This document shows, in pieces, positions 3,700 through 60,448 of a stretch of DNA of 64,000 nucleotides. Within the stretch, counting starts at the first letter, position 1, and every line of letters starts with the position of its first letter. The translations under genes were made by a program, and so were the position numbers. Source of the stretch: Candidatus Omnitrophota bacterium (GTDB taxonomy: Bacteria > Omnitrophota > Gorgyraeia > Duberdicusellales > 4484-171); NCBI GenBank assembly GCA_021735655.1, contig JAIPGM010000003.1, positions 1 to 64,000 on the forward strand. The letters are read 5' to 3'. The notes beneath the pieces were generated by a model. The model was not told the origin of the DNA, ran no database searches, and saw only the letters and a program-made list of their open reading frames with translations.

Positions 3700-4629
3700 A
3701 TGGAAAAGCAAGCCAAGATTTATATTGCCGGACACACAGGATTAGTTGGAAGAGCTCTTTTACGTGAGCTTAAAAAAGAAGGTTATGCTAATTTATTAAC
3801 CAGAACCCACCAAGAGCTAGATCTCACCCACCAGACAGAAGTTGAAAGATTTTTTAGCCAAGAGCGTCCTGACTATGTATTTTTAGCTGCGGCTCGAGTT
3901 GGCGGAATCGGCGCAAACAACAGTTACCCGGCAGAATTTATCTATGAAAACCTTATGATTCAGGCTAACGTTATTAATTCAGCATATACCTCAGGGGTTA
4001 AGAAGCTTTTATTCTTTAGCAGTGCTTGCATGTATCCTAAGTATTGCCCTCAGCCAATGAAGGAAGATAGTTTATTGACAGGGTGCCTAGAGCTAACCAG
4101 CGAACCTTATGCTATAGCTAAAATCGCTGGGGTAAAAATGTGTGAGGCTTATAATCGTCAATACAAAACAGGATTTATCTGTATTATACCTTCAAATATT
4201 TATGGTCCTGACGATCATTTTGGTTCTCAAGATTCACATGTGCTTCCGGCTTTGATTGATAAATTTCATAAAGCTAAGATTGCCAATGAACCTTCAGTGA
4301 TAGTTTGGGGGAGTGGAAATTGTAAAAGAGAATTTATCTATGTAGATGATGTTGCTTCGGCTGCAATTTTTCTTATGAATTTATTTGAAATTCATTCTTA
4401 TGTTAATTTGGGATACGGAGAAGATATAACTATAAAAGAGCTAATTGTTGCAGTGAAAGAAATTGTCGGATATAAGGGCGAGATCGTGTTTGATAAGTCT
4501 AAGCCTGATGGAATTTTACGAAAAGCTCTAGATAGTAGCAGAATATTATCTTTTGGCTGGAAGCCAAAGACGTCTTTAGCTAGCGGGTTGGACAAGACCT
4601 ATAAGAGTTTTTTAAAAAAATTTAGTTAA
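3700..4629 (+). CDS. fcl: GDP-L-fucose synthase family 3,5-epimerase/4-reductase (Fcl/WcaG homolog)
   Basis: IYIAGHTGLVG, YVFLAAARVGGIGANNSYPAEFIYENL, QPMKE, EPYAIAKIAG and YNRQY are typical of Fcl. No gmd is seen in the window. Confidence 0.7.
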   Translation: MEKQAKIYIAGHTGLVGRALLRELKKEGYANLLTRTHQELDLTHQTEVERFFSQERPDYVFLAAARVGGIGANNSYPAEFIYENLMIQANVINSAYTSGVKKLLFFSSACMYPKYCPQPMKEDSLLTGCLELTSEPYAIAKIAGVKMCEAYNRQYKTGFICIIPSNIYGPDDHFGSQDSHVLPALIDKFHKAKIANEPSVIVWGSGNCKREFIYVDDVASAAIFLMNLFEIHSYVNLGYGEDITIKELIVAVKEIVGYKGEIVFDKSKPDGILRKALDSSRILSFGWKPKTSLASGLDKTYKSFLKKFS

Positions 4630-4680: not shown

Positions 4681-5520
4681 GTGAAGAAAACAATTAAAAG
4701 TTTAAGAAAAAAAGCTGAAAACATAAGGAAAAATGTTTTAAATATGTGTATTCAGGCCCAAACCGGGCATGTTACCTCTTCTTTGTCTTGTATTGATATT
4801 TTGGTTTCTTTATACCATGGTAATGTCATGCGTCATAGGCCTAATGATCCTGGTTGGGAACAAAGGGATCGATTTATTTTAAGCAAAGGCCAAGCATCTC
4901 CGGCTTTGTATGCAGTTTTGGCTGATTGTGGTTATTTTAATTCGAAAGAACTTAATAATTTTGCTCAAAAAGGCGGAAATTTTGGCGTACACCTACAAGA
5001 TAGTGTACCCGGCGTTGAAATAACTTCTGGCTCACTGGGGCAAGGGTTTGGTTTGGCAGCTGGATTAGCATTAGGGGCTAAAAAGAATCGCAATCTTCAC
5101 TTAGTATTCACTTTACTAGGAGATGGTGAATGTTATGAGGGGTCTATTTGGGAGACAGCTATGTTCGCGGCTCATAATCAATTGAATAATCTCGTAGCAA
5201 TAGTTGATAGAAATTATCTCTGCGTAACTGATTTTACTGAAAATTTAATTGCTTTAGAGCCGTTAGATAAGAAATGGCAAGCTTTTGGTTGGGAAGTTAA
5301 ACGTATTAATGGTCATTCGATCGAGGAAATAATTTCAACTTTATGTCCTTTGCGTTCTAGGCCTTCAAGCAAGCCTCTTGTTGTTATCGCCGATACTGTA
5401 AAGGGAGAAGGAGCTGCTTCTTTGTGCTATCAGCCGTTATGTCATGGAATAGCACCTAAAGGAGAAGAAGCTGAAATAGCTATCAGAGAATTAGAAGGGA
5501 GGTTATGCGATTATGAATAA
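4681..5520 (+). CDS. transketolase, N-terminal (ThDP pyrophosphate-binding) subunit
   Basis: GTG start after an AAGGAGG RBS. Motifs GHVTSSLSCIDIL, DRFILSKGQASPALYAVLA and GSLGQGFGLAAGLA. Confidence 0.85.
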   Translation: MKKTIKSLRKKAENIRKNVLNMCIQAQTGHVTSSLSCIDILVSLYHGNVMRHRPNDPGWEQRDRFILSKGQASPALYAVLADCGYFNSKELNNFAQKGGNFGVHLQDSVPGVEITSGSLGQGFGLAAGLALGAKKNRNLHLVFTLLGDGECYEGSIWETAMFAAHNQLNNLVAIVDRNYLCVTDFTENLIALEPLDKKWQAFGWEVKRINGHSIEEIISTLCPLRSRPSSKPLVVIADTVKGEGAASLCYQPLCHGIAPKGEEAEIAIRELEGRLCDYE

Positions 5521-6451
5521 TATTTCTCAGCGTGATGCTTTTTGGAATAAGGTGTATGACAAGGCTGTTTTAGATAAAAATATCATCGTTGTCTCAGCTG
5601 ACATGGGTGCTCCAGCCCTTGATCAATTCAGGAAAGATTTTCCCTCACAGTTTGTTAATGTCGGAATTGCTGAGCAGAATGGTATAGCTATATCAGCTGG
5701 CCTTGCTTTAAGTGGTAAAAAAGTTTTTGTTTATGCGATAGCCCCGTTTATTACTTTACGTTGCTTGGAGCAAATAAGAGTAAACAATGCGATTATGAAC
5801 ATACCGATAACTATAGTTGGGGTTGGTGCCGGATTTGGTTACGAGGATTCAGGGCCGACGCATCATATTACTGAAGATCTTGCGATTATGCGTTCTATGC
5901 CCAACATAACAATTCATAGTATATCTGATAGTATCATGTCTCGAGCCATGGCTGTTATATCGTGCCAAATGAAGAACACTAATTACGTACGTTTAGATCG
6001 TTTAGTCCTTCCGAATTTATATCAAGAAAATGAGGATTTTTCTAAAGGTCTGTCAATTTTAGAAGAGTCAAAAGAAGCTTATATCATTGCAACCGGAAGT
6101 ATGGTTCATGTTGCTTTAGAGGCAGCAAAAAATATTAAGCAGCAAGGCTTTGATATCGGCGTAATTGATGTTTATTCTTTGCCGTTTAACGAAAAATTAC
6201 TTATTGATTTTATAAAAGGAGTTAAAAGGGTCGTGACCTTGGAAGAACATTTTCTTCCCGGTGGCCTTGGCAGTGCGGTCTGTGAAGTCATGCAGGATAA
6301 GGGGGTGTTATTGCCGGTTAAACGAATTGGCTTGTCTATGGAAAAGGGCTATTGCTATAAATATGGTGGCAGAGATATCATAAGAAGTTATTATGGTGTT
6401 GATTCTGGGTCCGTGACAAATATAGTGTCTGATTTTTTACAAGGAAAGTAA
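5513..6451 (+). CDS. transketolase, C-terminal (pyrimidine-binding) subunit
   Basis: GIAEQNGIAISAGLALSGKK and GPTHHITEDLAIMRSMPN. Overlaps the upstream gene by 8 nt. Confidence 0.85.
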   Translation: MNNISQRDAFWNKVYDKAVLDKNIIVVSADMGAPALDQFRKDFPSQFVNVGIAEQNGIAISAGLALSGKKVFVYAIAPFITLRCLEQIRVNNAIMNIPITIVGVGAGFGYEDSGPTHHITEDLAIMRSMPNITIHSISDSIMSRAMAVISCQMKNTNYVRLDRLVLPNLYQENEDFSKGLSILEESKEAYIIATGSMVHVALEAAKNIKQQGFDIGVIDVYSLPFNEKLLIDFIKGVKRVVTLEEHFLPGGLGSAVCEVMQDKGVLLPVKRIGLSMEKGYCYKYGGRDIIRSYYGVDSGSVTNIVSDFLQGK

Positions 6452-6454
6452 ATT

Positions 6455-7387
6455 ATGAAAATACTAGTAACTGGTGGAGCGGGCTATTTAGGTTCAATAA
6501 TGGTTCCTCGTTTATTAAATTCCGGTCACGATGTCGTCGTTGTTGATTCTTTTGCCTATCGTCAATCATCTTTGCTTGATTGTTGCAATAATAAGAAGCT
6601 GACTATAGAAAGGGCCGATACTTTAGATGAGCGAGTAATCGCGCGGCAAATTAAAAATGTTGATGCTATTTTTCCTTTAGCTTGTCTTACCGGTGCACCG
6701 CTTTGCGATAACCAGCCTGATGAGGCCAGACGCGTAATTGTTGAAGCCATAAGATTAATTCTTAAGTTGCGTTCTAAAGGACAAGCCATTATTTATCCCA
6801 CTACTAATAGCGGCTATGGTATAGGCCAAAAAGGTATTTTTTGTAACGAGAAAACTCCTTTGCGGCCAGTTTCGCTTTATGGAAAACTGAAAGTTGAGGC
6901 TGAGAAAATTTTGCTCGATGCGGGAGATTGTATTACTTTACGATTAGCAACTGCTTTTGGTATAAGTCCACGAATGCGTTTGGATTTATTAGTTAATGAT
7001 TTTACTTATCGAGCCGTAACAGATAAGTTCATAATTCTTTTTGAATCACATTTTAAAAGAAACTATATCCATGTTCGCGATGTGGCTAAAGCTTTTATCC
7101 ATGGATTGGATAATTTCCAAACCATGAAAAACCAAGCCTACAATGTTGGATTAAGCGATGCAAATTTAAGCAAGTGGGAGTTATGTCAGGAGATTAAAAA
7201 ACAAGTTCCTGATTTTTATTTTATTGAGGCCGAAGTCGGCCAAGATCCCGATAAAAGAGACTATATTGTAAGCAATGCGAAAATCGAAAATAAAGGCTTT
7301 AAGCCCGATGTTTCGTTGGAGGATGGTATAACTGAGTTGATAAAAGGATACCAAATCATTAGAAAGAATCAATATTCTAATGTCTAA
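6455..7387 (+). CDS. NAD-dependent epimerase/dehydratase family protein (extended SDR)
   Basis: ILVTGGAGYLGS Rossmann motif and YGKLK catalytic YxxxK. Confidence 0.7.
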   Translation: MKILVTGGAGYLGSIMVPRLLNSGHDVVVVDSFAYRQSSLLDCCNNKKLTIERADTLDERVIARQIKNVDAIFPLACLTGAPLCDNQPDEARRVIVEAIRLILKLRSKGQAIIYPTTNSGYGIGQKGIFCNEKTPLRPVSLYGKLKVEAEKILLDAGDCITLRLATAFGISPRMRLDLLVNDFTYRAVTDKFIILFESHFKRNYIHVRDVAKAFIHGLDNFQTMKNQAYNVGLSDANLSKWELCQEIKKQVPDFYFIEAEVGQDPDKRDYIVSNAKIENKGFKPDVSLEDGITELIKGYQIIRKNQYSNV

Positions 7388-7390
7388 ATT

Positions 7391-8887
7391 ATGATGTCAT
7401 TGGATCTAGTATTAGTAAATCCGAGTAGTAAAAAGCAGATGTATGGCAGTTTAAGCGATAGCTTAATCGGTATTGAACCACCAATATGGACAGCTTTGAT
7501 CGCTGCCTTTGTGCGCCGGAAAGGTTTTTCGGTAGCGATAATTGATGCTGTAGCTGAAGGTTTGGGCCCAACAGAAGTTTTTAATAGAATAAGGGAGTAT
7601 AACCCAAGAGTTATCGGCCTTGCTGCGATTGGAGCTAATCCTTCGGCGGCATCAACACCAAAAATGCTTGCTGTAAGAAGTCTATTGAATTTAATTCAAG
7701 AGAATAATTTTGATTCCAAGACCGTTCTTTACGGTATTCATCCTTCGGCTTTAGCCGAAGAAACCCTCAGAGAGGAGAAGATTGATTTCGTAATTAAAGG
7801 AGAAGCTTTTTATCCAATTTTAAATATTTTAAAAGAAACAAAATCGCAAGATATAGACGATTTATCGTTTAATAAGGGCATTTGTTATCTTCGGGATAAA
7901 AAGTTTATTTCTGGCGGTTGGGCTAAAGTAGTTGAGAATTTAGATGAATTACCCTTCGCAGCTTGGGATCTTTTACCGATGGATAAGTATCGAGCTCATA
8001 ATTGGCATTGTTTTGGCCATATAAGACAACGTTCTCCTTATGCCATAATTTACACTAGTTTTGGCTGCCCTTTCGATTGTAAATATTGTAATATTCATAG
8101 TCTTTACGGTGGTTCTCCGGGCATACGTTATCGTAGCCCTGAAAAGGTGGTCGAGGAAATCGATTTTCTAGTGAAAAATTATAATATTAAGCATTTAAAA
8201 ATACTTGATGAGCTTTTTGTTTCAGAAAAATCTAGGGTCGATAGATTTTGTGATCTGCTTATTAAACGTAACTACCGAATAAATATATGGGCTTATGCCA
8301 GAGTTGATACGGTTAATGAATTATTGCTAAAAAAATTAAAACAAGCTGGAGTAAATTGGATTTGCTATGGGTTCGAGGCAGCTAGCAAAAAAGTCCGGGA
8401 CGGCGTATCTAAGGGTAGGTTTGACCAGGAAGCTATTTATGAAGCTGCTCGTATAACTCATGATGCCGGGATTCATATAATCGGTAATTTTATGTTTGGT
8501 CTTCCTGATGATGATCAACAATCTATGCAAGAAACATTAAATTTAGCTAAAAAGTTACGTTGCGAATACGTGAACTTTTATACTACCATGGCTTATCCTG
8601 GTTCAAAGCTTTATCAAGAAGCAATAAAGCAGAAAAAGCAACTTCCGAAAAGCTGGTCAGGGTACTCTCAGTTTAGTTACGAAACTTTACCTTTGCCAAC
8701 AAAATATCTTTCTAGTGCCGAAGTTCTAAGCTTTAGAGACCGAGCTTTCGTGGATTATTATAGCGATCCCGAGTATAGCGCTATGATTAAAGAAGTTTTT
8801 GGCGAGGATACAGTTGAGCATATAAAAGATATGCTTAAATATAAATTAAAAAGGAAGCTGTTGGAAACTGAAGGAGTAAAGACATGA
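7391..8887 (+). CDS. B12-binding domain radical SAM protein (class B methyltransferase-like)
   Basis: N-terminal cobalamin-binding-like region, then CPFDCKYC (CxxxCxxC) near residue 225. 498 aa. Confidence 0.75.
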   Translation: MMSLDLVLVNPSSKKQMYGSLSDSLIGIEPPIWTALIAAFVRRKGFSVAIIDAVAEGLGPTEVFNRIREYNPRVIGLAAIGANPSAASTPKMLAVRSLLNLIQENNFDSKTVLYGIHPSALAEETLREEKIDFVIKGEAFYPILNILKETKSQDIDDLSFNKGICYLRDKKFISGGWAKVVENLDELPFAAWDLLPMDKYRAHNWHCFGHIRQRSPYAIIYTSFGCPFDCKYCNIHSLYGGSPGIRYRSPEKVVEEIDFLVKNYNIKHLKILDELFVSEKSRVDRFCDLLIKRNYRINIWAYARVDTVNELLLKKLKQAGVNWICYGFEAASKKVRDGVSKGRFDQEAIYEAARITHDAGIHIIGNFMFGLPDDDQQSMQETLNLAKKLRCEYVNFYTTMAYPGSKLYQEAIKQKKQLPKSWSGYSQFSYETLPLPTKYLSSAEVLSFRDRAFVDYYSDPEYSAMIKEVFGEDTVEHIKDMLKYKLKRKLLETEGVKT

Positions 8888-9954
8888 TTATTAGCAGAAC
8901 TCCGTTTAGAATATCTTTTTTTGGTGGTGGAACAGATTACCCGGTATGGTACAGGGAAAATGGTGGAGCAGTTATCTCAGCTTCGATAAATAAATATTGT
9001 TATATAACCTGTCGTTACTTGCCGCCATTTTTTGATTATAAATATAGAATAGTTTATTCGCAACGCGAGGCTGTAAAAAGCCTTTCCGATATAAAGCATC
9101 CCTCGGTTCGGGAGTGTTTAAATTTTATGAATTTAGGTAAAGGCGTTGAAATACATCATGATGGAGATCTGCCGGCTAGAACCGGTCTTGGTTCGAGTTC
9201 AGCTTTTACGGTAGGCTTGCTAAATGCTTTGTATGCTTTAAAGGGCAAGATGGTAACTAAAAAGCAGTTGGCGCTTGAAGCTATCCATGTTGAGCAAGAA
9301 AGAATTAAAGAGCATGTTGGTTCTCAAGACCAAACTATTGCCGCTTTTGGTGGATTTAACAAGATTACTTTTGCTCGGGATAATAATATTGAGGTTCAAC
9401 CGGTGACTTTACATTTTGAGAAATTAAAACACCTACAAAGACACTTAATGTTATTTTTTACTGGATTCTCTCGTACGGCTTCTGAAATTGCCCAAGAGCA
9501 AATAAATCAAACGCCTAATAGAACAAAGGAATTAGGTAACATGCATGATATGGTTTATGCCGCTATGGATATTTTAAACAGCAATCACGAAGATTTTAGT
9601 GATTTTGGTAAATTACTTAATGAAAGCTGGAAGATAAAAAGAAGCTTAACTTCTAAAATTTCAACGCCATTGATTGACCAGATTTATGAAACTGCTATGT
9701 GGGCCGGGGCAAAGGGTGGAAAAATTCTAGGGGCCGGCGGCGGCGGATTTATTTTATTTTTTGTTAATCCAGAATTTCAGCAAAAAGTAAGGCTAGCCCT
9801 TAAGAATCTTCTTTATGTTCCTTTTCGTTTTGATACCTTGGGTAGTCAAATAGTTTATTATGCTCCGGATCATCAATCTTGGTCAGATTCGAGTAAAGAT
9901 ATTTTAGCGGCTGAAGAAATTATTAGCAATGAGTCAACAGTAATTGAGAAATGA
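8884..9954 (+). CDS. GHMP-family sugar kinase (D,D-heptose 7-phosphate kinase HddA-like)
   Basis: RTPFRISFFGGGTDYP N-terminus and PARTGLGSSSA GHMP motif. Confidence 0.7.
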   Translation: MIISRTPFRISFFGGGTDYPVWYRENGGAVISASINKYCYITCRYLPPFFDYKYRIVYSQREAVKSLSDIKHPSVRECLNFMNLGKGVEIHHDGDLPARTGLGSSSAFTVGLLNALYALKGKMVTKKQLALEAIHVEQERIKEHVGSQDQTIAAFGGFNKITFARDNNIEVQPVTLHFEKLKHLQRHLMLFFTGFSRTASEIAQEQINQTPNRTKELGNMHDMVYAAMDILNSNHEDFSDFGKLLNESWKIKRSLTSKISTPLIDQIYETAMWAGAKGGKILGAGGGGFILFFVNPEFQQKVRLALKNLLYVPFRFDTLGSQIVYYAPDHQSWSDSSKDILAAEEIISNESTVIEK

Positions 9955-10658
9955 ATATTTTAAAATCTATAGATGTGGTTGTTCTTTGTGGTGGAAAAGG
10001 TGAGAGGTTACAATCAGTTTTAGGAGAAAAACCCAAAGTTTTAGTTGAAGTTTCTGGAAGGCCTTTCTTATCTATTCTAATTGACAATTTTAGGAAATTT
10101 GGTTTTAACCGTTTCATTTTAAGTGTGGGCTATAGACGGGATAAGATTATCGATTATTTTAAAGATAGAGCGGATATCTTTTTTTCTCAAGAGGAAATTG
10201 CTTTAGGAACCGGTGGCGGCTTAAAGAAAGCCGAAAGTTTAGTCAAAAGTAGTAGTTTTTTAGTTGTCAACGGCGACTCTTTCTGTGATTTAGATTTTAA
10301 TCGATTGTTTAGTTTTCACAGGGAAAAAAGAGCTATTTTAACTATGGCTTTGGTTAGAACCACAAAAGTTAAGGATTATGGAACTGTTACTATCGACAGC
10401 ACAGGAAAGATAAAAAGCTTTCAAGAAAAAGTGGAGGGGCTTAACTTTTGTTTAGCTAATGCTGGAATATATCTAATGGATAAAGAAATATTCAAGCAGA
10501 TGCCGCAAAAAAAAGTTTTTTCTTTAGAACGCGATTTATTTCCTAAAACAGAAAATAGCTTTGGCTTTGTAACAGAAGCTAAATTATATGATATCGGAAC
10601 GCCAGAGCGGTATGTTCAGGCTAAGGAGTTTTTTAACTGTAAAGGGGCCATGTCGTGA
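9951..10658 (+). CDS. sugar-1-phosphate nucleotidyltransferase (HddC-like)
   Basis: VVLCGGKGERL G-x-G-x-R motif. 235 aa, single-domain NTP transferase. Confidence 0.7.
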   Translation: MNILKSIDVVVLCGGKGERLQSVLGEKPKVLVEVSGRPFLSILIDNFRKFGFNRFILSVGYRRDKIIDYFKDRADIFFSQEEIALGTGGGLKKAESLVKSSSFLVVNGDSFCDLDFNRLFSFHREKRAILTMALVRTTKVKDYGTVTIDSTGKIKSFQEKVEGLNFCLANAGIYLMDKEIFKQMPQKKVFSLERDLFPKTENSFGFVTEAKLYDIGTPERYVQAKEFFNCKGAMS

Positions 10659-12100
10659 AAGTAATGTTATTGTTTCCAAAGTGGACTAGTGCTTATGGTT
10701 TATTTTCATATTTTGCTAAGAAGGCATCTCGCTGGCCACCTTTAAATCTAGCTTACATTGCGGCTGTAGCTGAAAATAACGGCCATATGGTAAAAATAGT
10801 TGATGGAGAGGCCGAAGATTTACCAACGGCAAAAATTTTGGAACGTATAAATGAGTTTAAGCCAGATATAATCGGCATGACTGCTACTACACCTTTTTTC
10901 CATGTAGTGGTTAAACTCGCTGAGGCGATTAAAGGGTTTAATAAAAGCATTCCGATAGCTATAGGCGGAGCGCATATAACTATTTTACAAAAGGAAGATT
11001 TTAATCTTTGTTTTGATTATGCCTTTCTTGGTGAAGCCGAAGAATCATGGGCTCAGTTTCTAGATAGATATGGTTCTGGGAAAGATATGTCAGACATAAA
11101 AGGCCTTCTTTATCGTAAAGGTGATGAGGTTGTTTGTACTGGTCTTTCTGAACCAATTAAGAATATTGATTCAATTCCTTATCCAGCGAGGCATTTACTA
11201 AAATTAGATAAATATAATATAGGCACTTTAAAAGGTGTAAAAAATTTTACGACTATTATGACAACTAGAGGTTGCCCGTTTGAATGTATATTTTGTAGCA
11301 CAAAAGTGTTCGGTTCCAGGATTCGTCGAAGGTCTTTGGATTCGGTAATGGATGAGATTAAATCAATAATTTATAATTTTAATATTAAACATTTTACCTT
11401 TTTGGATGACACTCTAACACTTGATAGAAATTATATTTTACAATTATGTAAGCGAATACAGGCCGAAGATTTTTCAATCACTTTTGATGGCAGTACTAGA
11501 GCTAATTTAGTGGATGATGAATTAATTGCTGAAATGGCTAAAGCAGGGCTAATAAGAATTTCTTTTGGTTTAGAATCAGTAGATCCTCGCATAAGAAAGA
11601 TTATTAAAAAAGAAGTGCCGCTTGAAAGTTATCAAAAGGCAAATCAAATAACTAATAAATATGGAATAGAGACGCTTAATTCAGTTATGCTTGGCTTACC
11701 AGGCGAAACAGCCGAAACTGTAGAAAGTACTCTGGGTTACTTACGTAATGCGCGTCATATTCAGCAAGCTAATCTTAGTATAGCCACTCCTTATCCAGGT
11801 ACGGAACTTTATCGGATGGCTAAAGAGGGGCAACACGGGTTACGGTTATTGACTGAAGATTTTTCAAGGTATCGTCGTTATGGATCAGCAGTTATGGAGG
11901 TGAATGAATTGTCGGCTCAAGATCTTATTGATTTACAAAACGACGGATTTCTTAGGATATATTCAGCTCCCTGGCGGATTATTCCAATGGTAAGAAAGAG
12001 TGGTATTTTAGGAGCATTGCTTACTTTTTCCAGACTGGCCAAGAAGATTAAAAGGCAGCTAAGGGTTAAGAAGGCAACAAAAGATAATAACAGCAATTAG
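10655..12100 (+). CDS. B12-binding domain radical SAM protein (second copy)
   Basis: TRGCPFECIFC CxxxCxxC motif after an N-terminal B12-binding-like domain. 481 aa. Confidence 0.75.
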   Translation: MKVMLLFPKWTSAYGLFSYFAKKASRWPPLNLAYIAAVAENNGHMVKIVDGEAEDLPTAKILERINEFKPDIIGMTATTPFFHVVVKLAEAIKGFNKSIPIAIGGAHITILQKEDFNLCFDYAFLGEAEESWAQFLDRYGSGKDMSDIKGLLYRKGDEVVCTGLSEPIKNIDSIPYPARHLLKLDKYNIGTLKGVKNFTTIMTTRGCPFECIFCSTKVFGSRIRRRSLDSVMDEIKSIIYNFNIKHFTFLDDTLTLDRNYILQLCKRIQAEDFSITFDGSTRANLVDDELIAEMAKAGLIRISFGLESVDPRIRKIIKKEVPLESYQKANQITNKYGIETLNSVMLGLPGETAETVESTLGYLRNARHIQQANLSIATPYPGTELYRMAKEGQHGLRLLTEDFSRYRRYGSAVMEVNELSAQDLIDLQNDGFLRIYSAPWRIIPMVRKSGILGALLTFSRLAKKIKRQLRVKKATKDNNSN

Positions 12101-12127: not shown

Positions 12128-13072
12128 ATGTTTTTTATTTCATCATCTTGCACAAGAAAAAGAAAAGTTAACGAGGCAATTCAGGACTTATTAGGTTTTG
12201 GTGTTAAGAATATCGAATTATCTGGCGGTCTTGTTATTTATGATCAATGGGAGGCTGATTTTCGTCTTTTGAGGGATTCGGAAGAACTAAATATTTTGAT
12301 ACATAATTATTTTCCACCGCCAGCACTTAAAAAAGATGCTTTTGTGCTCAATCTCGCTTCAGATAATGAGCAGCTTAAGCAAAAAAGTTTTGAACTTATT
12401 AAGAAGTCATTTAAATTTATAAGTGATTTTGGTATTTCTTTATATAGCGTTCACGGAGGCCATAGTGTTGATATGCTTCCGGAGTTAAAAGATATGCATT
12501 TTATTGTAGATAAGGAGTCTAAAAGAGATAAATTTCAAGCAAGTTTTAATTTTTATGAAAGTCTAGAAAGGATAGTCGCAGAAAGTTTGCCTGATAGTAA
12601 AAAATTAGCGGTTGAGAATCTTTTTCCATTCAGTAAAGAACAGAATTATTGCTTGATGACTTTACCCGAAGAGATAGAGAAATTTTTAAAATATAGTCGA
12701 AAATACAAAAATGTTGGTTTGTTGTTAGATTTGGGCCATTTAAATGTTGCTGGAAAAGCTTTTAATTTTGACCCGGCTAAGTGTGCCGAAAGAATATTAT
12801 CTGAATATTCCGATAAAATTTTTCAATTGCATCTTTCCGACAATGATGGGACCTTTGATTTCCACAAAGTTTGTAGTAGCAATTCTTGGCAGCTCAAATT
12901 AGTCGAAAATTTCTATGAAGTTGTAAAACACGTTCCGATTGTGTTTGAGTGGCATTGCAAGACAAATTCAAACGAGCAGATTAGAGATGGAATTAGCTAT
13001 ATTAAATCTTATTTTGGCCAGACTGCTTTTACTGAGTTAGAGGACAGTAAACATTTAATTTATGAGAACTAA
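12128..13072 (+). CDS. xylose isomerase-like TIM-barrel sugar phosphate isomerase/epimerase
   Basis: VENLFPF, LLLDLGHLNV and LHLSDNDG metal-ligand motifs of the AP_endonuc_2 / xylose-isomerase-like family. Confidence 0.55.
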   Translation: MFFISSSCTRKRKVNEAIQDLLGFGVKNIELSGGLVIYDQWEADFRLLRDSEELNILIHNYFPPPALKKDAFVLNLASDNEQLKQKSFELIKKSFKFISDFGISLYSVHGGHSVDMLPELKDMHFIVDKESKRDKFQASFNFYESLERIVAESLPDSKKLAVENLFPFSKEQNYCLMTLPEEIEKFLKYSRKYKNVGLLLDLGHLNVAGKAFNFDPAKCAERILSEYSDKIFQLHLSDNDGTFDFHKVCSSNSWQLKLVENFYEVVKHVPIVFEWHCKTNSNEQIRDGISYIKSYFGQTAFTELEDSKHLIYEN

Positions 13073-14273
13073 TACAGAAAATACTAAGTTATCTTTTGGT
13101 ACGATGTCAGTAACTGCTAAGGCAAAACAGTTAGTTACCGAAGCAATGGATTCAGGAATGCTTTCTCAGGGAAAGTATGTAAGAGAATTTGAAGAAAGGT
13201 TTGCCGATTTGGTTGGCGTAAAGGAAGCGGTTGCCGTGTCAACTGGAACCGAAGCCGATACTTTAGCTTTAGCCGTACTTTATGATTTTGGAGCAAAAAG
13301 AGGCGATGAAGTAATTATTCCGGCATTGTCATTCGTTGCAACTGGAAATGCAGTGTTACATGCTGGCTTTAAGCCAGTTTTTGTAGATATTCAAAGAGAA
13401 ACTTTAAATATTAACCCTGATGAAATAGAGGCAGCAATTACCAAAAAAACAAAGGCTATTATGCCGGTACATTTAATGGGTAAACCGGCTGAAATGGATA
13501 GAATAATTGAAATAGCTAAGAAGCATAATTTGTGCGTTGTTGAAGATGCCGCTGAGGCTCATGGCGCAGTATATAAAGGTAAGAATATTGGAGCTTGGGG
13601 TGATATGGCTGCCTATAGTCTTTATGCCGCCCATATTATTTCTACAATTGAGGGCGGCATTGTTGTTACTGATCGTAAAGATTTTGCTGAGGTTTTAAGA
13701 TCTTTGCGTTCACACGGACGATTTTGTAAATGTAAGCAATGTGTATTAAATGTCGGTAAGGGCGAATGCCTAAAGCGTTTCAAAGGCAATAAAGATCAAA
13801 GATTTGATTTTGAACGCATCGGTTATTCTTCAAAGATGAATGAACTCGAAGCAGCAGTCGGATTAGGAAATCTTGATATTTATCAAGATATCTTTAAGAA
13901 ACGCAGAGAAAACCTTATCTATTTAATTGGGCAATTTTCTAGATTCGCACCTTATCTTTTTACGATAAACGAAGAAGATCATGAAACTGTTGGCCCGCAC
14001 GCATTTCCAGTTATTGTTGGGGAAGATACAGGCTTTAGCCGCGATGAATTAGTTTTTTACTTAAAATCAAAGGGTATTGATTCGAGAAATCTTTTTTTAT
14101 CAATGCCAACTCAATGCCGAGGGTTTGAATTTTTAGGTTATAAACTTGGGGAATTTCCTAATGCTGAATATATAGCCGATAATGGTTTTCATATCGGCGT
14201 GCATCAAGGCTTGGGAAGAAGAGAGCTTGAGTATTTCGTAGAAGGGACTAAGCAATTCTTGGATAGACGGTGA
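13062..14273 (+). CDS. DegT/DnrJ/EryC1-fold PMP-dependent sugar 3-dehydrase (E1/DdhC-like), not an aminotransferase
   Basis: DegT fold, but His replaces the Schiff-base Lys (SLYAAHIISTIEGG). A Cys cluster, RSHGRFCKCKQCVLNVGKGECLKRF, parallels the E1 [2Fe-2S] region. Confidence 0.6.
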   Translation: MRTNTENTKLSFGTMSVTAKAKQLVTEAMDSGMLSQGKYVREFEERFADLVGVKEAVAVSTGTEADTLALAVLYDFGAKRGDEVIIPALSFVATGNAVLHAGFKPVFVDIQRETLNINPDEIEAAITKKTKAIMPVHLMGKPAEMDRIIEIAKKHNLCVVEDAAEAHGAVYKGKNIGAWGDMAAYSLYAAHIISTIEGGIVVTDRKDFAEVLRSLRSHGRFCKCKQCVLNVGKGECLKRFKGNKDQRFDFERIGYSSKMNELEAAVGLGNLDIYQDIFKKRRENLIYLIGQFSRFAPYLFTINEEDHETVGPHAFPVIVGEDTGFSRDELVFYLKSKGIDSRNLFLSMPTQCRGFEFLGYKLGEFPNAEYIADNGFHIGVHQGLGRRELEYFVEGTKQFLDRR

Positions 14274-15368: not shown

Positions 15369-15388
15369 AATAGCACTATTACCCAAAG

Positions 15389-19578: not shown

Positions 19579-19579
19579 T

Positions 19580-35087: not shown

Positions 35088-35115
35088 AGGTTGAGGATAG
35101 TAAGAAGGATTTAAA

Positions 35116-37171: not shown

Positions 37172-37181
37172 GGTTAAAACA

Positions 37182-38381: not shown

Positions 38382-38393
38382 AAGGAGTAGTCT

Positions 38394-39434: not shown

Positions 39435-39448
39435 AAGAGAGGTTTATT

Positions 39449-40111: not shown

Positions 40112-40122
40112 GATGTAATTAA

Positions 40123-55990: not shown

Positions 55991-56776
55991 ATGAAAGCAG
56001 TAATATTATGTGGAGGAAGAGGGACAAGAATTAGAGATGCCTCAGAAGTTTTACCTAAGTCAATGCTTCCGGTGGGCAATATGCCCTTGCTTTGGCATAT
56101 AATGAAAATTTACGCTCATTATGGGATAAAAGATTTCGTTTTATGCCTTGGTTATAAAGGGTGGGCGATAAAAGAGTTTTTTTTAAATTATCAAGCTAAG
56201 GTTTTTGATGTAGTGTTGAAGTTAGATAAAGAAAATTCAATAATTTATGGCCAAAACCATCATGAAAAGTTAGATTGGAAAATCTCGCTTGTAGAAACAG
56301 GCGAAGAATCACAAACCGGAGCAAGAATTTGGAATGCACGCAAATATTTAGAAGATTGTGATATGTTTTGTGTAACTTATGGTGACGGTGTTGGCAATAT
56401 CGACATCAAATCTTTAATAGAAGTTCATAAAAAATCGGGTTTACTTGGCACAATAACTGGAGTTCATCCTTCAGGCCGTTTTGGCGAAATAGAGACAAAA
56501 GGTAAGATTATTTCTTCTTTCGCAGAGAAGCCAAATGTAAGCTTTGGTTCTTATAATGGCGGGTTTATGGTTTTTGATAGAAAAGTTTTAGGAAAATATT
56601 TTAGATCTGGAAAAGATTTGATATTGGAGGCAGAAACTTTGCCTAATATGGTGAATGACAAGCAGTTAGGAATATATGAGCATAATGGTTTTTGGCAATG
56701 TGTTGACACTAATCGGGAATTAGAAATATTGGAGGGTTTATGGAATTCTTCTAATCCTCCTTGGAAAGTATGGTGA
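55991..56776 (+). CDS. rfbF: glucose-1-phosphate cytidylyltransferase
   Basis: MKAVILCGGRGTRI...LWHIMKIYAHYGIKDF...LWNSSNPPWKVW, near-colinear with RfbF/DdhA. Confidence 0.9.
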   Translation: MKAVILCGGRGTRIRDASEVLPKSMLPVGNMPLLWHIMKIYAHYGIKDFVLCLGYKGWAIKEFFLNYQAKVFDVVLKLDKENSIIYGQNHHEKLDWKISLVETGEESQTGARIWNARKYLEDCDMFCVTYGDGVGNIDIKSLIEVHKKSGLLGTITGVHPSGRFGEIETKGKIISSFAEKPNVSFGSYNGGFMVFDRKVLGKYFRSGKDLILEAETLPNMVNDKQLGIYEHNGFWQCVDTNRELEILEGLWNSSNPPWKVW

Positions 56777-57753
56777 ATACGCAAGTAAAATTTTGGAAAG
56801 GCAAAAGAGTCTTGATTACGGGCTATGAAGGATTCTTAGGATCTAATCTTGCTAAAGTTCTGCTAAACTTTGGTGCAAAGATATCGGGTTTGGATATTTT
56901 GACTAGAAGAAAAGATACAATCCTTACTCAAAAAGAATTAGCCAAGATAAAGATAATTAAAGGAAATGTTGATAATTTATCTTTAGTAAAGAGGATTTTA
57001 AGGAATGATAAAATAGAGGTTATTTTTCATCTCGCTGCAGAGGCTTTAGTTGGCGAGTGTCTAAAAAGACCAGTCAAAGGATTTTCGACCAATATTAAGG
57101 GAACTTGGAATATTTTAGAAGCTTGGCGGCAAACAAAAATAGCCAAAGCAATAGTTGTAGCTTCAAGCGATAAAGCCTACGGAAGTCATTCTAAGCTTCC
57201 TTATAAAGAAGATAGTGCGCTTTGCGGTTTGCATCCCTATGATGTTTCGAAGTCATGTGCTGACTTAATTGCTCATGCTTATCATAATACCTATGGAGCG
57301 CCGGTAGTGATAACTCGCTGTGGTAACATTTTTGGTCCGGGAGACTTCAATTTTTCCAGAATTGTTCCTGAAACCTTACGTTCGGTAATTAGAAATAAAA
57401 CTTTGGTTATTCGTAGTGATGGAAAGTTCACTCGTGATTATGTATATGTTGATGATATTGTAGCCGGATATATAAACTTAGCTCAAAAATCTAAAAAGTT
57501 AAAACTATTTGGCCAGGCTTTTAATTTTAGCGCCGAGCAGCCGCTTTCAGTTTTAGCTTTGGTAAAGTTGATTTATAAATTAGCTGACAGAAGATCTAAC
57601 TATAAAATCTTAAAACAGGCGAAATATGAAATTAAGCATCAATATCTTTCATCTAGGAAGGCTGCTAGAGTTCTTGGCTGGAAACCAAAGCTGAAGCTAG
57701 ATAAGGCTTTGGAGAAAACTTACCAGTGGTATAAAGATAATCTAAGCAAATGA
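56770..57753 (+). CDS. rfbG: CDP-glucose 4,6-dehydratase
   Basis: FWKGKRVLITGYEGFLGS, YDVSKSCAD. ATG 56770 overlaps the rfbF stop; an alternative in-frame TTG lies at 56761. Confidence 0.85.
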   Translation: MVNTQVKFWKGKRVLITGYEGFLGSNLAKVLLNFGAKISGLDILTRRKDTILTQKELAKIKIIKGNVDNLSLVKRILRNDKIEVIFHLAAEALVGECLKRPVKGFSTNIKGTWNILEAWRQTKIAKAIVVASSDKAYGSHSKLPYKEDSALCGLHPYDVSKSCADLIAHAYHNTYGAPVVITRCGNIFGPGDFNFSRIVPETLRSVIRNKTLVIRSDGKFTRDYVYVDDIVAGYINLAQKSKKLKLFGQAFNFSAEQPLSVLALVKLIYKLADRRSNYKILKQAKYEIKHQYLSSRKAARVLGWKPKLKLDKALEKTYQWYKDNLSK

Positions 57754-58490
57754 AGATAAATTTTTTAGGAACAAATGGATGGTACGATACTGATACCGGA
57801 AATACTCTTTGTATTCTTATTGAAACTAAAAAAGAATATATTATTCTCGATGCCGGAGGCGGTTTTTACAAAATTGGTCAATATATAAAGAAAAAGAAGC
57901 CAATTTATCTTTTCTTAAGCCATTTTCATCTCGACCACATTATTGGACTTCATACCTTATTGCTAGGTAACTTTTCTCAGGGGATTAAGCTTTACGGACC
58001 ACCGGGAGTAAAGAAATACTTATCACAAATAGTAAATTATCCTTATACAGCGCCAATTTCTAAGTTAAAAACAAAGGTTATCGTTAATCAAATTAAAAAA
58101 GAAGTACGTTTTCCTTTTAAGGTTGAGTTTGGCAAGCTGCTTCATCCTTCATTATGTTACGGCTATCGGTTTAATTTGGAAGGCAAAACAATTGTTTATT
58201 GCACCGATACCGGAATTTGCAGTAATTTATATAAGTTAGCTAGGGATTCTGATTTATTTATTACTGAATGCTCGGCGACTGCCGGAAAAAAGGAAAAGGA
58301 TTGGCCTCATTTAACGGCTCAGGATGCAGCTAAGGTTGCTAAGAAATCCCAAGTAAAAAAATTATTTTTAGTTCATTTTAATGCTTCCTTATTTAAAACT
58401 GAAAAGCAACGCAATATGGCTAAGGCACAAGCAAAAGAGATATTTGGGAATACTTTTGCGGCCAGTGACGGACAAGTAGTTAATTTATAA
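57750..58490 (+). CDS. MBL-fold metallo-hydrolase
   Basis: HFHLDHIIGL (HxHxDH) motif. 246 aa. Confidence 0.6.
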   Translation: MKINFLGTNGWYDTDTGNTLCILIETKKEYIILDAGGGFYKIGQYIKKKKPIYLFLSHFHLDHIIGLHTLLLGNFSQGIKLYGPPGVKKYLSQIVNYPYTAPISKLKTKVIVNQIKKEVRFPFKVEFGKLLHPSLCYGYRFNLEGKTIVYCTDTGICSNLYKLARDSDLFITECSATAGKKEKDWPHLTAQDAAKVAKKSQVKKLFLVHFNASLFKTEKQRNMAKAQAKEIFGNTFAASDGQVVNL

Positions 58491-58501
58491 AGCTTTAAAT
58501 A

Positions 58502-60435: not shown

Positions 60436-60448
60436 TAAGGAGTAGACA

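What the first reader, a model, noticed from the sequence alone, without database searches (positions are those of the whole stretch)
13062..14273. Second E1-type (His-for-Lys, Fe-S motif) sugar 3-dehydrase with no visible E3 reductase partner
Against DegT aminotransferases, the Schiff-base lysine position is His (SLYAAHIISTIEGG versus SFxxxK in the two true aminotransferases at 22433 and 37182). A Cys motif C-x-C-x2-C-x8-C (RSHGRFCKCKQCVLNVGKGECLKRF) lies at the position where DdhC/E1 has [17 protein letters not shown]. The truncated ddhC at 63188 shows the same two features. So the window encodes two PMP/[2Fe-2S]-type C3-deoxygenases, which implies two independent 3-deoxy sugar branches. Neither is adjacent to an E3-type ferredoxin-NADP reductase (DdhD). 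That partner may lie outside the window or be replaced.
Basis: partly seen in the sequence, partly recalled or inferred. Interest (0 to 1): 0.65.

Follow-up and report, generated by a model that had tools for sequence, protein, structure and literature searches.

The report
Rewired E1-like sugar 3-dehydrase, GDP-heptose cassette
This gene belongs to a large, unstudied group of sugar-deoxygenating enzymes found in hundreds of uncultured, mostly anaerobic bacterial lineages; the group keeps the catalytic histidine and most of the iron-sulfur-binding cysteines of the classic E1 enzyme but sits in a heptose pathway and has no dedicated reductase partner.

Summary
ORF 13062-14273 (403 aa, DegT fold) has His191 where the window's two aminotransferases have the Schiff-base Lys. 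It carries C222-x-C224-x2-C227-x8-C236 in the loop where E1/DdhC holds its cluster cysteines.

All seven signature positions (Ala164, His191, five Cys) are identical in 80/80 species-level homologs. The motif also holds in the 120 best protein hits. About 435 species carry the family, and the 80 listed are all MAGs.

It is not an E1 ortholog:
- It scores 257.6 against an RfbH cut-off of 423.
- It lacks ligand C193 (Ala164) and gains loop Cys227 instead.
- It groups outside the canonical E1/ColD clade.

Its conserved neighbours are HddA-like kinase, HddC-like transferase, a Cj1427 ortholog (GDP-heptose C4-dehydrogenase), a GDP-fucose-synthase-like reductase, a B12 radical-SAM enzyme and a two-subunit ThDP enzyme.

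Best reading: a PMP-dependent 3-dehydrase acting on a GDP-4-keto-heptose, with an Fe-S loop probably fed by general ferredoxin or flavodoxin (SpnQ-like), followed by ThDP-dependent branching.

The truncated gene at 63188 is a true DdhC inside an erwiniose-type cluster. No E3 gene was found in the window, in 10 kb downstream, or in 80 related loci. Cofactor and substrate remain inferred.

The parts
13062..14273 (+). Target gene: His-type DegT-fold protein with a 4-Cys loop, a putative PMP-dependent NDP-4-keto-sugar 3-dehydrase
   Evidence: ORF. Pfam DegT 320.5 bits. Best solved relative is E1 3bcx, E 3e-60. RfbH model 257.6 bits, below the cut-off of 423. Exact match in a Candidatus Omnitrophica MAG.
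13632..13634 (+). His191 codon (CAT), at the Schiff-base Lys position; the proposed general base
   Evidence: Aligns with E1 H220 and ColD H188. The aminotransferases have Lys here. Invariant in 80/80 loci. Codon confirmed.
13725..13769 (+). Cys loop C222-x-C224-x2-C227-x8-C236; the proposed Fe-S binding site
   Evidence: C222, C224 and C236 align with E1/DdhC C251, C253 and C261. C227 is specific to this clade. All are invariant. AF2 confidence is below 50 here.
13551..13553 (+). Ala164 codon, at the position of E1 ligand Cys193 (EDAAE versus EDCCD/EDNCD)
14115..14117 (+). Cys352 codon (SMPTQC), a fifth invariant Cys within the tight family; role unknown
   Evidence: Invariant in the tight family. 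It is Gln or His in the 46-51% identical relatives and in DdhC. It lies in a low-confidence AF2 loop, 343-354.
3700..4629 (+). GDP-fucose-synthase-like SDR; a candidate C4 reductase (with or without epimerase) of the cassette
   Evidence: NCBIfam Fcl 451.8 bits, cut-off 500. Best PDB hits are E. coli GDP-fucose synthetase and further 'GDP-L-fucose synthase' entries (7anh, 7anc, 7m13, 8ewu, 7cxt) that I recall, unverified, as C. jejuni heptose C4 reductases. Present in 21/48 full loci.
4681..6451 (+). Split transketolase-type ThDP enzyme (N subunit 4681-5520, C subunit 5513-6451)
   Evidence: Pfam and NCBIfam. A two-subunit ThDP enzyme is present in 41/48 full loci: TK-type in 24, PDH-E1 alpha/beta-type in 19, both in only 2.
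6455..7387 (+). [quoted passage not shown] It would make the 4-keto substrate.
   Evidence: 408 bits, E 1.6e-121 to PDB 6vo6/6vo8. The 6vo8 entry title names Cj1427 with GDP-D-glycero-D-mannoheptose. Present in 32/48 full loci.
7391..8887 (+). B12-binding radical SAM enzyme, a conserved cassette member
   Evidence: Pfam B12-binding plus Radical_SAM. Present in 28/48 full loci.
8884..9954 (+). HddA-like GHMP sugar kinase, the near-obligate partner of the target
   Evidence: Best PDB hits are heptose kinases 3k85, 4usk and 4n3o. Present in 46/48 full loci at about 62% identity.
9951..10658 (+). HddC-like sugar-1-phosphate nucleotidyl (guanylyl) transferase
   Evidence: Best PDB hits 5xhw/6jq8, '6-deoxy-D-mannoheptose pathway protein'. 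NCBIfam HddC 138.9 bits. Present in 37/48 full loci.
10655..12100 (+). Second B12 radical SAM enzyme (accessory, in few loci)
   Evidence: Pfam. At 50% identity or more in 3/48 full loci.
12128..13072 (+). Xylose-isomerase-like TIM barrel protein overlapping the target start by 11 nt (accessory)
   Evidence: Pfam AP_endonuc_2. Conserved in only 1-2 related loci.
63188..64000 (+). Canonical DdhC/E1 (truncated by the window end) with H220, C193, C251, C253, C261
   Evidence: RfbH 433.7 bits although truncated. The full gene, L006:10966-12273, scores 694.2 bits. Residues.
55991..63188 (+). Erwiniose-type branched-sugar cassette feeding and using DdhC: DdhA-like, DdhB-like, MBL, acetaldehyde dehydrogenase, DmpG/BphI-like aldolase, YerE/ErwE-like ThDP enzyme, SDR
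   Evidence: Pfam and NCBIfam. The same gene set is described for erwiniose in PMC9306805.

Best explanation
The gene encodes a PMP-dependent sugar-nucleotide 3-dehydrase of the His-for-Lys class. It works like E1/SpnQ but belongs to a separate, uncharacterised clade.

Proposed sequence of steps (all inferred):
1. The HddA-like kinase and HddC-like transferase make a GDP-heptose.
2. The Cj1427 ortholog oxidises C4, giving GDP-4-keto-heptose.
3. The target forms a PMP ketimine at C4. His191 removes the C4' proton and the 3-OH leaves.
4. The resulting 3,4-ene-PMP adduct is reduced by two single electrons passed through an Fe-S cluster. That cluster is held by C222, C224, C236 (equivalent to E1 C251, C253, C261) and C227, which replaces the missing E1 ligand C193.
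5. Electrons come from the cell's general ferredoxin or flavodoxin, because no E3-type reductase is encoded nearby.
6. The GDP-3-deoxy-4-keto-heptose is then a substrate for the conserved two-subunit ThDP enzyme (C-branching at C4, as in yersiniose and erwiniose), for SDR reductases and for a B12 radical-SAM enzyme.

Shown here: the fold, His191, the invariant Cys loop, the identity of the neighbours and the absence of an E3 gene nearby.
Inferred: the cofactors, the cluster type, the substrate, the electron donor and the order of steps.
For: (1) Fold and catalytic residue. DegT fold, with E1 as the best solved relative. His191 aligns with E1 H220 and ColD H188, while the window's aminotransferases keep Lys. 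The review PMC8987622 states that this His replaces the catalytic Lys in all characterised 3-dehydratases.

(2) Cys ligands. Three of the four E1 cluster Cys sit at homologous columns, and the following C-x-KRF motif is shared. The window's own DdhC has Cys only at 193, 251, 253 and 261 among the candidate positions. That fits the C-X57-C-X1-C-X7-C ligand set I recall from Agnihotri et al. 2004.

(3) Ligand count is preserved. Among the nearest 50%-identity clusters, every sequence with Ala or Ser at position 164 has 4 loop Cys (17/17). Loops with 3 Cys occur only with Cys164 (5/5). Fisher p = 0.009, not corrected for phylogeny.

(4) Invariance. All signature residues are identical in 80/80 species and the motif holds in 120/120 hits.

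(5) Context. In 48 loci with full 10-kb flanks: GHMP 46, NTP transferase 37, Cj1427-like 32, ThDP enzyme 41, B12-rSAM 28, Fcl-like 21. The Cj1427 ortholog scores 408 bits. An L-2-hydroxyglutarate-oxidase-like gene occurs in 9 loci. I recall from the Cj1427 papers, which were not readable here, that alpha-ketoglutarate is reduced to L-2-hydroxyglutarate; one search shows only that alpha-ketoglutarate is supplied with Cj1427.

(6) Chemical precedent. A ColD-type C3-dehydratase converts the Cj1427 product to GDP-3-deoxy-4-keto-heptose in vitro (PMC10680097).

(7) No dedicated reductase. No E3 or ferredoxin gene appears in the window, the downstream flank or 80 loci. This resembles SpnQ, which uses general ferredoxin/flavodoxin reductase pairs.

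(8) Parallel within the window. The canonical DdhC sits next to a ThDP branching enzyme in an erwiniose-type cluster.
Against: - No biochemical data exist for any member of the clade.
- The characterised GDP-sugar 3-dehydratases that I know of (ColD, C. jejuni HS:5/HS:11) have no Fe-S cluster and need no reductase.
- The clade falls outside the canonical E1/ColD group in a rough NJ tree. Its C-terminal domain is closest to short-loop His-type proteins without Cys, so the loop may not be strictly homologous in function.
- A Cys4 loop could bind Zn instead.
- The AF2 model is unreliable (pLDDT below 50) at the His loop, the Cys loop and the C352 loop, so geometry could not be checked.
- GmhA and GmhB are not part of the cassette.
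- The role of the ThDP enzyme is unproven.
- An Fcl-like 4-reductase and C4 branching would compete for the same carbonyl.
Confidence: 0.55

Rival explanations
1. ColD-type mechanism. The enzyme removes the 3-OH from a GDP-4-keto sugar. The enamine is then hydrolysed and PMP is regenerated from PLP by L-glutamate. The Cys loop binds Zn or is purely structural, so no reductase is needed, which would explain why none is encoded.
For: The partners use GDP-sugars: HddC-like, Fcl-like and Cj1427-like. Characterised GDP-sugar C3-dehydratases are ColD-type and work with PLP plus glutamate, including on the Cj1427 product. ColD gives a full-length match of 177.5 bits. No reductase or ferredoxin gene occurs in 80 loci.
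Against: ColD has no Cys in this loop. The target keeps three E1 ligand positions and an invariant fourth Cys across 80 species. The target scores higher to E1 than to ColD: 207 against 177 bits overall, and 104 against 70 bits for the C-terminal half. The listed hosts belong to lineages generally regarded as anaerobic, and the cassette includes O2-sensitive radical-SAM enzymes, so an Fe-S enzyme fits there.
Confidence: 0.2
2. A second canonical E1/DdhC paralog. It acts on CDP-4-keto-6-deoxy-D-glucose with a [2Fe-2S] cluster and uses a DdhD/E3 reductase encoded elsewhere in the genome.
For: E1 is the best solved relative and RfbH is the top NCBIfam model. His and the Cys loop are present. DdhA/DdhB-like genes exist in the window at 55991-57753.
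Against: The RfbH score of 257.6 is far below the cut-off of 423, whereas the other gene passes even when truncated. The C193 ligand is absent. The clade lies outside canonical E1. The conserved partners are GDP-heptose enzymes, not DdhA/DdhB, in 48 loci. The DdhA/DdhB genes lie about 43 kb away, next to the true DdhC.
Confidence: 0.05
3. Not a 3-dehydrase. It is a His-type DegT protein with another activity on the heptose intermediate, for example a non-catalytic or PMP-only transamination, a dehydration at another carbon, or an isomerisation. The Cys loop would then serve another redox or structural role.
For: Most near relatives are uncharacterised His-type families: 117 of the 150 nearest clusters have His, and none of the eight representative relatives scanned reaches an NCBIfam cut-off except the canonical E1-like fusion P0171. 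SpnQ can transaminate without reductant. The cassette contains unexplained enzymes (B12-rSAM, ThDP).
Against: Every characterised His-for-Lys DegT enzyme named in the review is a 3-dehydratase. A C4-dehydrogenase that makes the required 4-keto substrate is conserved next to the gene.
Confidence: 0.1

Closest known systems
E1 / DdhC / RfbH / AscC (CDP-6-deoxy-L-threo-D-glycero-4-hexulose 3-dehydrase, Yersinia and Salmonella; PDB 3bcx)
   Same: DegT fold. His at the Lys position. A Cys-rich loop at the same site, with three ligand positions (C251, C253, C261) and the C-x-KRF motif conserved. It is the best solved-structure match.
   Different: About 33% identity. Below the RfbH family cut-off. 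C193 is replaced by Ala, an extra loop Cys227 is present, and the loop is 4 residues longer. Context is GDP-heptose rather than CDP-glucose. No E3/DdhD partner nearby. It falls in a separate clade.
SpnQ (TDP-4-keto-2,6-dideoxy-D-glucose 3-dehydrase, spinosyn pathway)
   Same: A His-type, Fe-S-motif 3-dehydrase with no dedicated E3; it uses general ferredoxin/flavodoxin reductase pairs (review). This is the closest functional analogy for the missing partner.
   Different: SpnQ acts on a dTDP-2,6-dideoxy sugar in an actinomycete antibiotic pathway. The target's context is GDP-heptose glycan synthesis in uncultured bacteria from lineages generally regarded as anaerobic.
ColD and the C. jejuni HS:5/HS:11 GDP-heptose C3-dehydratases
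   Same: His at the Lys position (H188). GDP-sugar substrates. The pathway neighbours match: HddA, HddC, a 4-keto-forming SDR and an Fcl-like C4 reductase. The HS:5 enzyme converts the Cj1427 product to a 3-deoxy-4-keto-heptose in vitro.
   Different: ColD-type enzymes have no Cys in the loop. They regenerate PMP with glutamate and need no electrons. The target scores lower to ColD than to E1.
Yersiniose/erwiniose logic (E1, then ThDP enzyme YerE/ErwE, then reductase YerF/ErwF)
   Same: A 3-dehydrase co-occurs with a ThDP-dependent enzyme and SDR reductases. The same window holds a textbook erwiniose-type set around its true DdhC. A ThDP enzyme is present in 41/48 related loci.
   Different: The ThDP enzyme here is a split transketolase or a PDH-E1 alpha/beta pair, not the acetolactate-synthase-like YerE/ErwE. 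The sugar is probably a GDP-heptose. A B12 radical-SAM enzyme is added. Branching is inferred only.

Membership tests
Pfam PF01041 DegT/DnrJ/EryC1/StrS | Profile match above the gathering score over the full domain | tested here: met
   320.5 bits against a cut-off of 19.8; residues 19-394 match profile positions 5-357 of 360. Foldseek TM 0.8 to DegT-fold structures.
Sugar 3-dehydratases of the His-for-Lys class (E1, ColD, SpnQ) | His in place of the Schiff-base Lys | tested here: met
   H191 aligns with E1 H220 and ColD H188. The aminotransferases in the same window have Lys. Invariant in 80/80 loci.
E1 / DdhC / RfbH (NCBIfam NF011936 equivalog) | Score at or above the curated cut-off (423 bits) | tested here: not met
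   257.6 bits. The window's other gene scores 433.7 truncated and 694.2 full length.
E1 / DdhC / RfbH | Four cluster cysteines C193, C251, C253, C261 (C-X57-C-X1-C-X7-C; ligand identities recalled from Agnihotri et al. 2004, the paper could not be read here) | tested here: not met
   C251, C253 and C261 are conserved as C222, C224 and C236. C193 is Ala164 in all 80 species. Extra C227 lies in the loop.
E1 / DdhC / RfbH | Pathway context: CDP-glucose enzymes DdhA and DdhB adjacent | tested here: not met
   The neighbours are HddA-like, HddC-like, Cj1427-like and Fcl-like. The DdhA/DdhB-like genes lie at 55991-57753, next to the true DdhC.
E1 / DdhC / RfbH | Dedicated E3 (DdhD/AscD) [2Fe-2S] flavoprotein reductase partner | tested here: inconclusive
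   None in the window, none in 10 kb downstream, and none in 80 related loci by motif scan. The rest of the genome could not be searched.
E1 / SpnQ type | Bound Fe-S cluster and PMP cofactor | not testable with these tools
   Only sequence inference is available. AF2 confidence is below 50 across the loop. This needs metal analysis and UV-vis/EPR.
ColD type | No cysteine cluster in the loop after the RxHG motif; glutamate-dependent PMP regeneration | tested here: not met
   The ColD loop, RAHGWTRNLPKKNKVTGV, has no Cys, whereas the target has four. Glutamate dependence is not testable here.
GDP-heptose modification pathway (C. jejuni Cj1423-Cj1430 type) | Co-located HddA, HddC, Cj1427-type C4-dehydrogenase and Fcl-like C4 reductase | tested here: met
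   Best PDB hits are HddA (3k85, 4n3o), HddC (5xhw), Cj1427 (6vo6/6vo8, 408 bits) and GDP-fucose synthetase together with 'GDP-L-fucose synthase' entries that I recall, unverified, as C. jejuni heptose C4 reductases. Conserved in related loci. GmhA and GmhB are not in the cassette.

The most novel reading that the evidence does not exclude
The clade is the first Fe-S-dependent 3-deoxygenase acting on a GDP-sugar. Its cluster site is entirely within one loop (C-x-C-x2-C-x8-C, possibly with C352) and it takes electrons directly from ferredoxin or flavodoxin. Together with a Cj1427-type dehydrogenase, an interchangeable transketolase or PDH-E1 ThDP enzyme and a B12 radical-SAM enzyme, it would build a previously undescribed 3-deoxy, C4-branched and/or C-methylated heptose for the surface glycans of hundreds of uncultured, mostly anaerobic lineages (Omnitrophota, Elusimicrobiota, Brocadia, Nitrospirota and others).
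Probability: 0.3. Interest if true: 0.7.

Novelty: new variant of a known kind. Interest (0 to 1): 0.52.

Why it matters
C3-deoxygenation of sugars has three studied solutions: E1 with E3, SpnQ with general reductases, and ColD with glutamate. All three come from a few cultured bacteria.

This gene represents a fourth, very widespread sequence solution. At least 435 species carry it, the signature residues are invariant, and no curated family or structure exists for it. The cluster-binding site appears rewired, and the pathway around it starts from a GDP-heptose.

If confirmed, it would:
- test which cysteines really hold the E1-type cluster;
- show how the electron supply works without E3;
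- reveal a natural route to 3-deoxy (probably branched) heptoses in the cell envelopes of uncultured phyla.

It also gives enzymologists a defined eight-gene cassette to reconstitute.

Tried and rejected
(1) AF2 model of the target, built with a 35-sequence alignment. Overall pLDDT was 79.5, but it fell below 50 at the His loop, the Cys loop and the C352 loop, and no coordinates are returned. Cys geometry and distance to the cofactor could not be assessed. Foldseek only confirmed the general DegT fold.

(2) Single-sequence AF2 of the Cj1427-like SDR was useless as a model (pLDDT 34). I used the Foldseek output only to read the title of entry 6vo8.

(3) The primary E1, SpnQ and Cj1427 papers were not held. 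A text search for the ligand numbers found nothing relevant. The E1 ligand identities therefore rest on my memory plus the pattern in the window's own DdhC.

(4) Hypothesis that the transketolase merely supplies sedoheptulose-7-phosphate: rejected as the main role. In 19 of 48 loci it is replaced by a PDH-E1 alpha/beta pair, and only 2 loci have both. GmhA is present in only 4/80 loci.

(5) Candidate redox partners in the window are not conserved with the family. These were the flavoprotein-NeuB fusion at 17191, the NADP-oxidoreductase-like ORF at 19463 and the GFO/IDH/MocA genes.

(6) The overlapping TIM-barrel gene (12128-13072), the TIGR04440 protein and the ABC transporter are not conserved partners; each occurs in 1-4 loci.

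(7) A literature search for the gene combination returned nothing.

(8) The NJ tree is rough and I did not rely on its fine branching.
Full report
**The observation**

ORF 13062-14273 (+) encodes 403 aa with a full-length DegT/DnrJ/EryC1/StrS domain (320.5 bits).

- His for Lys. Against solved structures, SLYAAH191IISTIEGG places His191 on His220 of E1. Wild-type 3bcx has H there and the H220K mutant 3bb8 has K. His191 also falls on His188 of ColD, whose H188N and H188K mutant entries show N and K in that column.
- Aminotransferase controls. In a MAFFT alignment the window's two aminotransferases carry Lys at this column: SFQRSKHLTTGDGG at 22433 and SFNGNKILTTGGGG at 37182.
- Cys motif. C222-x-C224-x2-C227-x8-C236 (codons 13725-13769) lies in the loop where E1 has [21 protein letters not shown].
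- Second gene. The truncated ORF at 63188 shows the same two features.

**Not chance**

The exact protein is on record from a Candidatus Omnitrophica MAG, on a contig of 278,835 bp.

- The 120 best database hits are 65-80% identical, and all carry the His and HGRxCxCxxCx8C.
- A scan of one genome per GTDB species found 435 species with a relative. The 80 listed are all MAGs. They come from Omnitrophota, Margulisiibacteriota, Saganbacteria, Elusimicrobiota, Planctomycetota (Brocadia, Sedimentisphaerales), Nitrospirota, Deltaproteobacteria/Thermodesulfobacteriota and Ignavibacteria.
- In all 80 the residues at 164/191/222/224/227/236/352 read A-H-C-C-C-C-C.

**Relation to E1**

The gene cut by the window end is a true DdhC. 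Its full-length copy was recovered from an overlapping contig (L006:10966-12273). It scores 694.2 bits against the RfbH equivalog, whose cut-off is 423.

That DdhC has His220 and Cys at 193, 251, 253 and 261, the same numbering as Yersinia E1. It lacks Cys192 and Cys257. This matches the ligand set C-X57-C-X1-C-X7-C that I recall from Agnihotri et al. 2004. The paper is cited in the review read but could not be opened.

The target differs in these ways:
- It scores only 257.6 bits on the same RfbH model.
- It keeps C251, C253 and C261 as C222, C224 and C236, and keeps the following C-x-KRF.
- It has Ala164 instead of C193 and an additional Cys227 inside a loop that is four residues longer.
- A fifth Cys (C352) is invariant in the tight family but is Gln or His in the 46-51% identical relatives.

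**Wider family picture**

A HMMER search of 1.84 billion cluster representatives shows that His at the Lys position is common around this protein. It occurs in 117 of the 150 nearest 50%-identity clusters.

Cys-rich loops occur in two settings. One has Cys at position 164 (canonical E1-like, with 3-5 loop Cys). The other has Ala or Ser at 164, and then always has 4 loop Cys (17/17). Three-Cys loops occur only with Cys164 (5/5). Fisher p is 0.009, without phylogenetic correction. At least four potential ligands are thus always kept, which fits a ligand swap from C193 to C227.

A rough NJ tree and domain-wise phmmer place the target with the other A/S164 four-Cys clusters and with short-loop His-type proteins. 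It falls outside the canonical E1/ColD clade. Eight representative relatives were scanned against NCBIfam; only the canonical E1-like fusion P0171 reaches a cut-off. This is a distinct, uncharacterised clade rather than a DdhC paralog.

**Genomic context**

Window proteins were used as queries against the 80 loci, and all ORFs were also clustered without prior assumptions. Both approaches define a cassette.

Counts in the 48 loci with complete 10-kb flanks:

| Partner | Loci (of 48) |
|---|---|
| GHMP kinase | 46 |
| Nucleotidyltransferase | 37 |
| SDR matching window 6455-7387 | 32 |
| B12 radical-SAM enzyme | 28 |
| Fcl-like SDR | 21 |
| Two-subunit ThDP enzyme | 41 |

The ThDP enzyme is transketolase-type in 24 loci and PDH-E1 alpha/beta-type in 19. 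Only 2 loci have both.

Identities of the partners:
- The SDR is an ortholog of Cj1427 (408 bits, E 1.6e-121 to PDB 6vo6/6vo8). The entry title, read, names Cj1427 with NADH and GDP-D-glycero-D-mannoheptose. [quoted passage not shown]
- The kinase and transferase are closest to HddA and HddC.
- The Fcl-like protein is closest to E. coli GDP-fucose synthetase and to further 'GDP-L-fucose synthase' entries that I recall, unverified, as C. jejuni heptose C4 reductases.
- Nine loci add an L-2-hydroxyglutarate-oxidase-like flavoprotein (261 bits against a cut-off of 299). I recall that Cj1427 reduces alpha-ketoglutarate to L-2-hydroxyglutarate, which such an oxidase would recycle; the primary paper could not be read here.

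In C. jejuni, a ColD-type C3-dehydratase acts in the GDP-heptose pathway (PMC10440746). It also converts the Cj1427 product into GDP-3-deoxy-4-keto-heptose in vitro. The target therefore most likely removes the 3-OH of a GDP-4-keto-heptose.

**The reductase question**

No protein with ferredoxin, FAD or NAD domains of the E3/DdhD type occurs among the 57 ORFs of 150 aa or more in the window. None occurs in the 10 kb beyond the window end, which hold a GT2, an initiating transferase, VanZ, an MBL, Wzy, phosphodiesterases and a GT9. A motif scan of all ORFs in 80 related loci found no E3-like protein and only one stray ferredoxin-like ORF.

Both 3-dehydrase genes therefore lack a nearby E3. The rest of the genome could not be searched.

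The precedent is SpnQ, which uses general ferredoxin/flavodoxin reductase pairs (review). The alternative is ColD-type chemistry, which needs no electrons.

**Mechanism proposed**

1. PMP forms a ketimine at C4.
2. His191 abstracts the C4' proton and the 3-OH leaves.
3. The ene-adduct is reduced through a cluster held by C222, C224, C227 and C236, with electrons from housekeeping ferredoxin or flavodoxin.

What favours Fe-S over Zn: three ligand positions are homologous with E1, the ligand count is conserved, and the cassette includes O2-sensitive radical-SAM enzymes in lineages generally regarded as anaerobic.

What weakens it: the GDP-sugar 3-dehydratases known so far are cluster-free, the clade is not nested in E1, and the AF2 model is unreliable in the three loops that matter.

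**After the dehydrase**

Two unrelated two-subunit ThDP enzymes are almost mutually exclusive across the loci. This argues that ThDP-dependent C2 transfer is a core step rather than a supply of sedoheptulose-7-phosphate.

The same window gives a parallel. Around the true DdhC lie a DdhA-like gene, a DdhB-like gene, an acetylating acetaldehyde dehydrogenase (399.6 bits against a cut-off of 282), a DmpG/BphI-like aldolase, an acetolactate-synthase-like ThDP enzyme and an SDR. PMC9306805 describes this gene set for erwiniose: ErwJ, ErwI, ErwE and ErwF acting on CDP-4-keto-3,6-dideoxyglucose.

By analogy, the target's product may be branched at C4. This is inference only.

**Verdict**

There are indeed two His-type, Cys-loop 3-dehydrase genes in two separate deoxysugar cassettes without a visible E3. 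However, the target is a new variant (rewired Cys motif, GDP-heptose context, separate clade), not a second DdhC. Its cofactor content and chemistry remain to be shown.

Noticed in passing
window 1730-3697 (+): The dTDP-glucose 4,6-dehydratase (RmlB) gene is interrupted by an intein of about 335 aa, inserted in the conserved HLAAE|S...VVCHN|THVD motif. It has Ser at position 1, a C-terminal HN and Thr at +1, with LAGLIDADG-like motifs (LAAYITEGNA, LLEGDGTKDG). The Pfam Intein_splicing hit is just below its cut-off (31.9 against 35.8).
   Followed up: partly
window 55991-64000 (+) and L006:10966-12273: An erwiniose-type branched-sugar cluster: DdhA-like, DdhB-like, MBL hydrolase, acetylating acetaldehyde dehydrogenase, DmpG/BphI-like aldolase, YerE/ErwE-like ThDP enzyme, SDR and a canonical DdhC. 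This matches the gene set reported for Pectobacterium erwiniose (PMC9306805), here in an Omnitrophica MAG and without a ddhD gene nearby.
   Followed up: partly
L007-L086 (80 related loci): In the conserved cassette the two-subunit ThDP enzyme is either a split transketolase (24 of 48 full loci) or a PDH-E1 alpha/beta pair (19 of 48). Only 2 loci have both. This looks like non-orthologous displacement of one pathway step.
   Followed up: yes
L046:8851-9981 and eight other loci (L008, L011, L022, L037, L039, L075, L081, L085): An L-2-hydroxyglutarate-oxidase-like FAD protein (261 bits against a cut-off of 299) sits inside the cassette. It would recycle the L-2-hydroxyglutarate that, as I recall, a Cj1427-type dehydrogenase makes from alpha-ketoglutarate.
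   Followed up: partly
proteins P0121-P0270 (nearest 50%-identity clusters): His at the Schiff-base Lys position is very common: 117 of the 150 nearest clusters. Two large uncharacterised His-type groups stand out. One has a short loop (RSHGRP, about 375 aa). The other has an acidic NHGRDSIYLSIDDDD loop and often occurs in fusion proteins of 600-800 aa. Of the eight representatives scanned against NCBIfam, none from these groups reaches a cut-off.
   Followed up: partly
window 17191-19578, 20660-22423, 29391-30434, 33888-41262 (+): At least three NeuB-type synthases are present. Two are fusions: a GLF/flavoprotein-like N-terminus plus NeuB plus SAF, and NeuB plus a CMP-sugar cytidylyltransferase. 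There is also a legionaminic-acid-type set (CBS-NTP transferase, LegB-like, LegC at 488.7 bits against a cut-off of 420) and a WbuY/WbuZ-like HisF/HisH pair at 32263-33848. This is an unusually dense nonulosonic-acid repertoire.
   Followed up: no
window 14298-17194 (+); also L007, L010, L016, L053: A TIGR04440-type glycosyltransferase-like protein and a 600-aa ABC exporter directly follow the target here and in a few related loci. They are not part of the conserved cassette.
   Followed up: partly
L009 (CP070751.1, 2911874-2933073): A homolog at 71% identity lies on a 5.16-Mb 'chromosome' labelled Thermoplasmata archaeon. That size and gene content are odd for the lineage, so this may be mis-binning or horizontal transfer.
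   Followed up: no
window 19463-20656 (+): This ORF has a TTG start and overlaps the preceding gene by 116 nt. The true start is probably further downstream.
   Followed up: no
window 40123-41262 (+): A 3-dehydroquinate-synthase-like (sugar phosphate cyclase family) gene sits next to an SDR and a cytidylyltransferase inside the glycan cluster. Its function there is unexplained.
   Followed up: no
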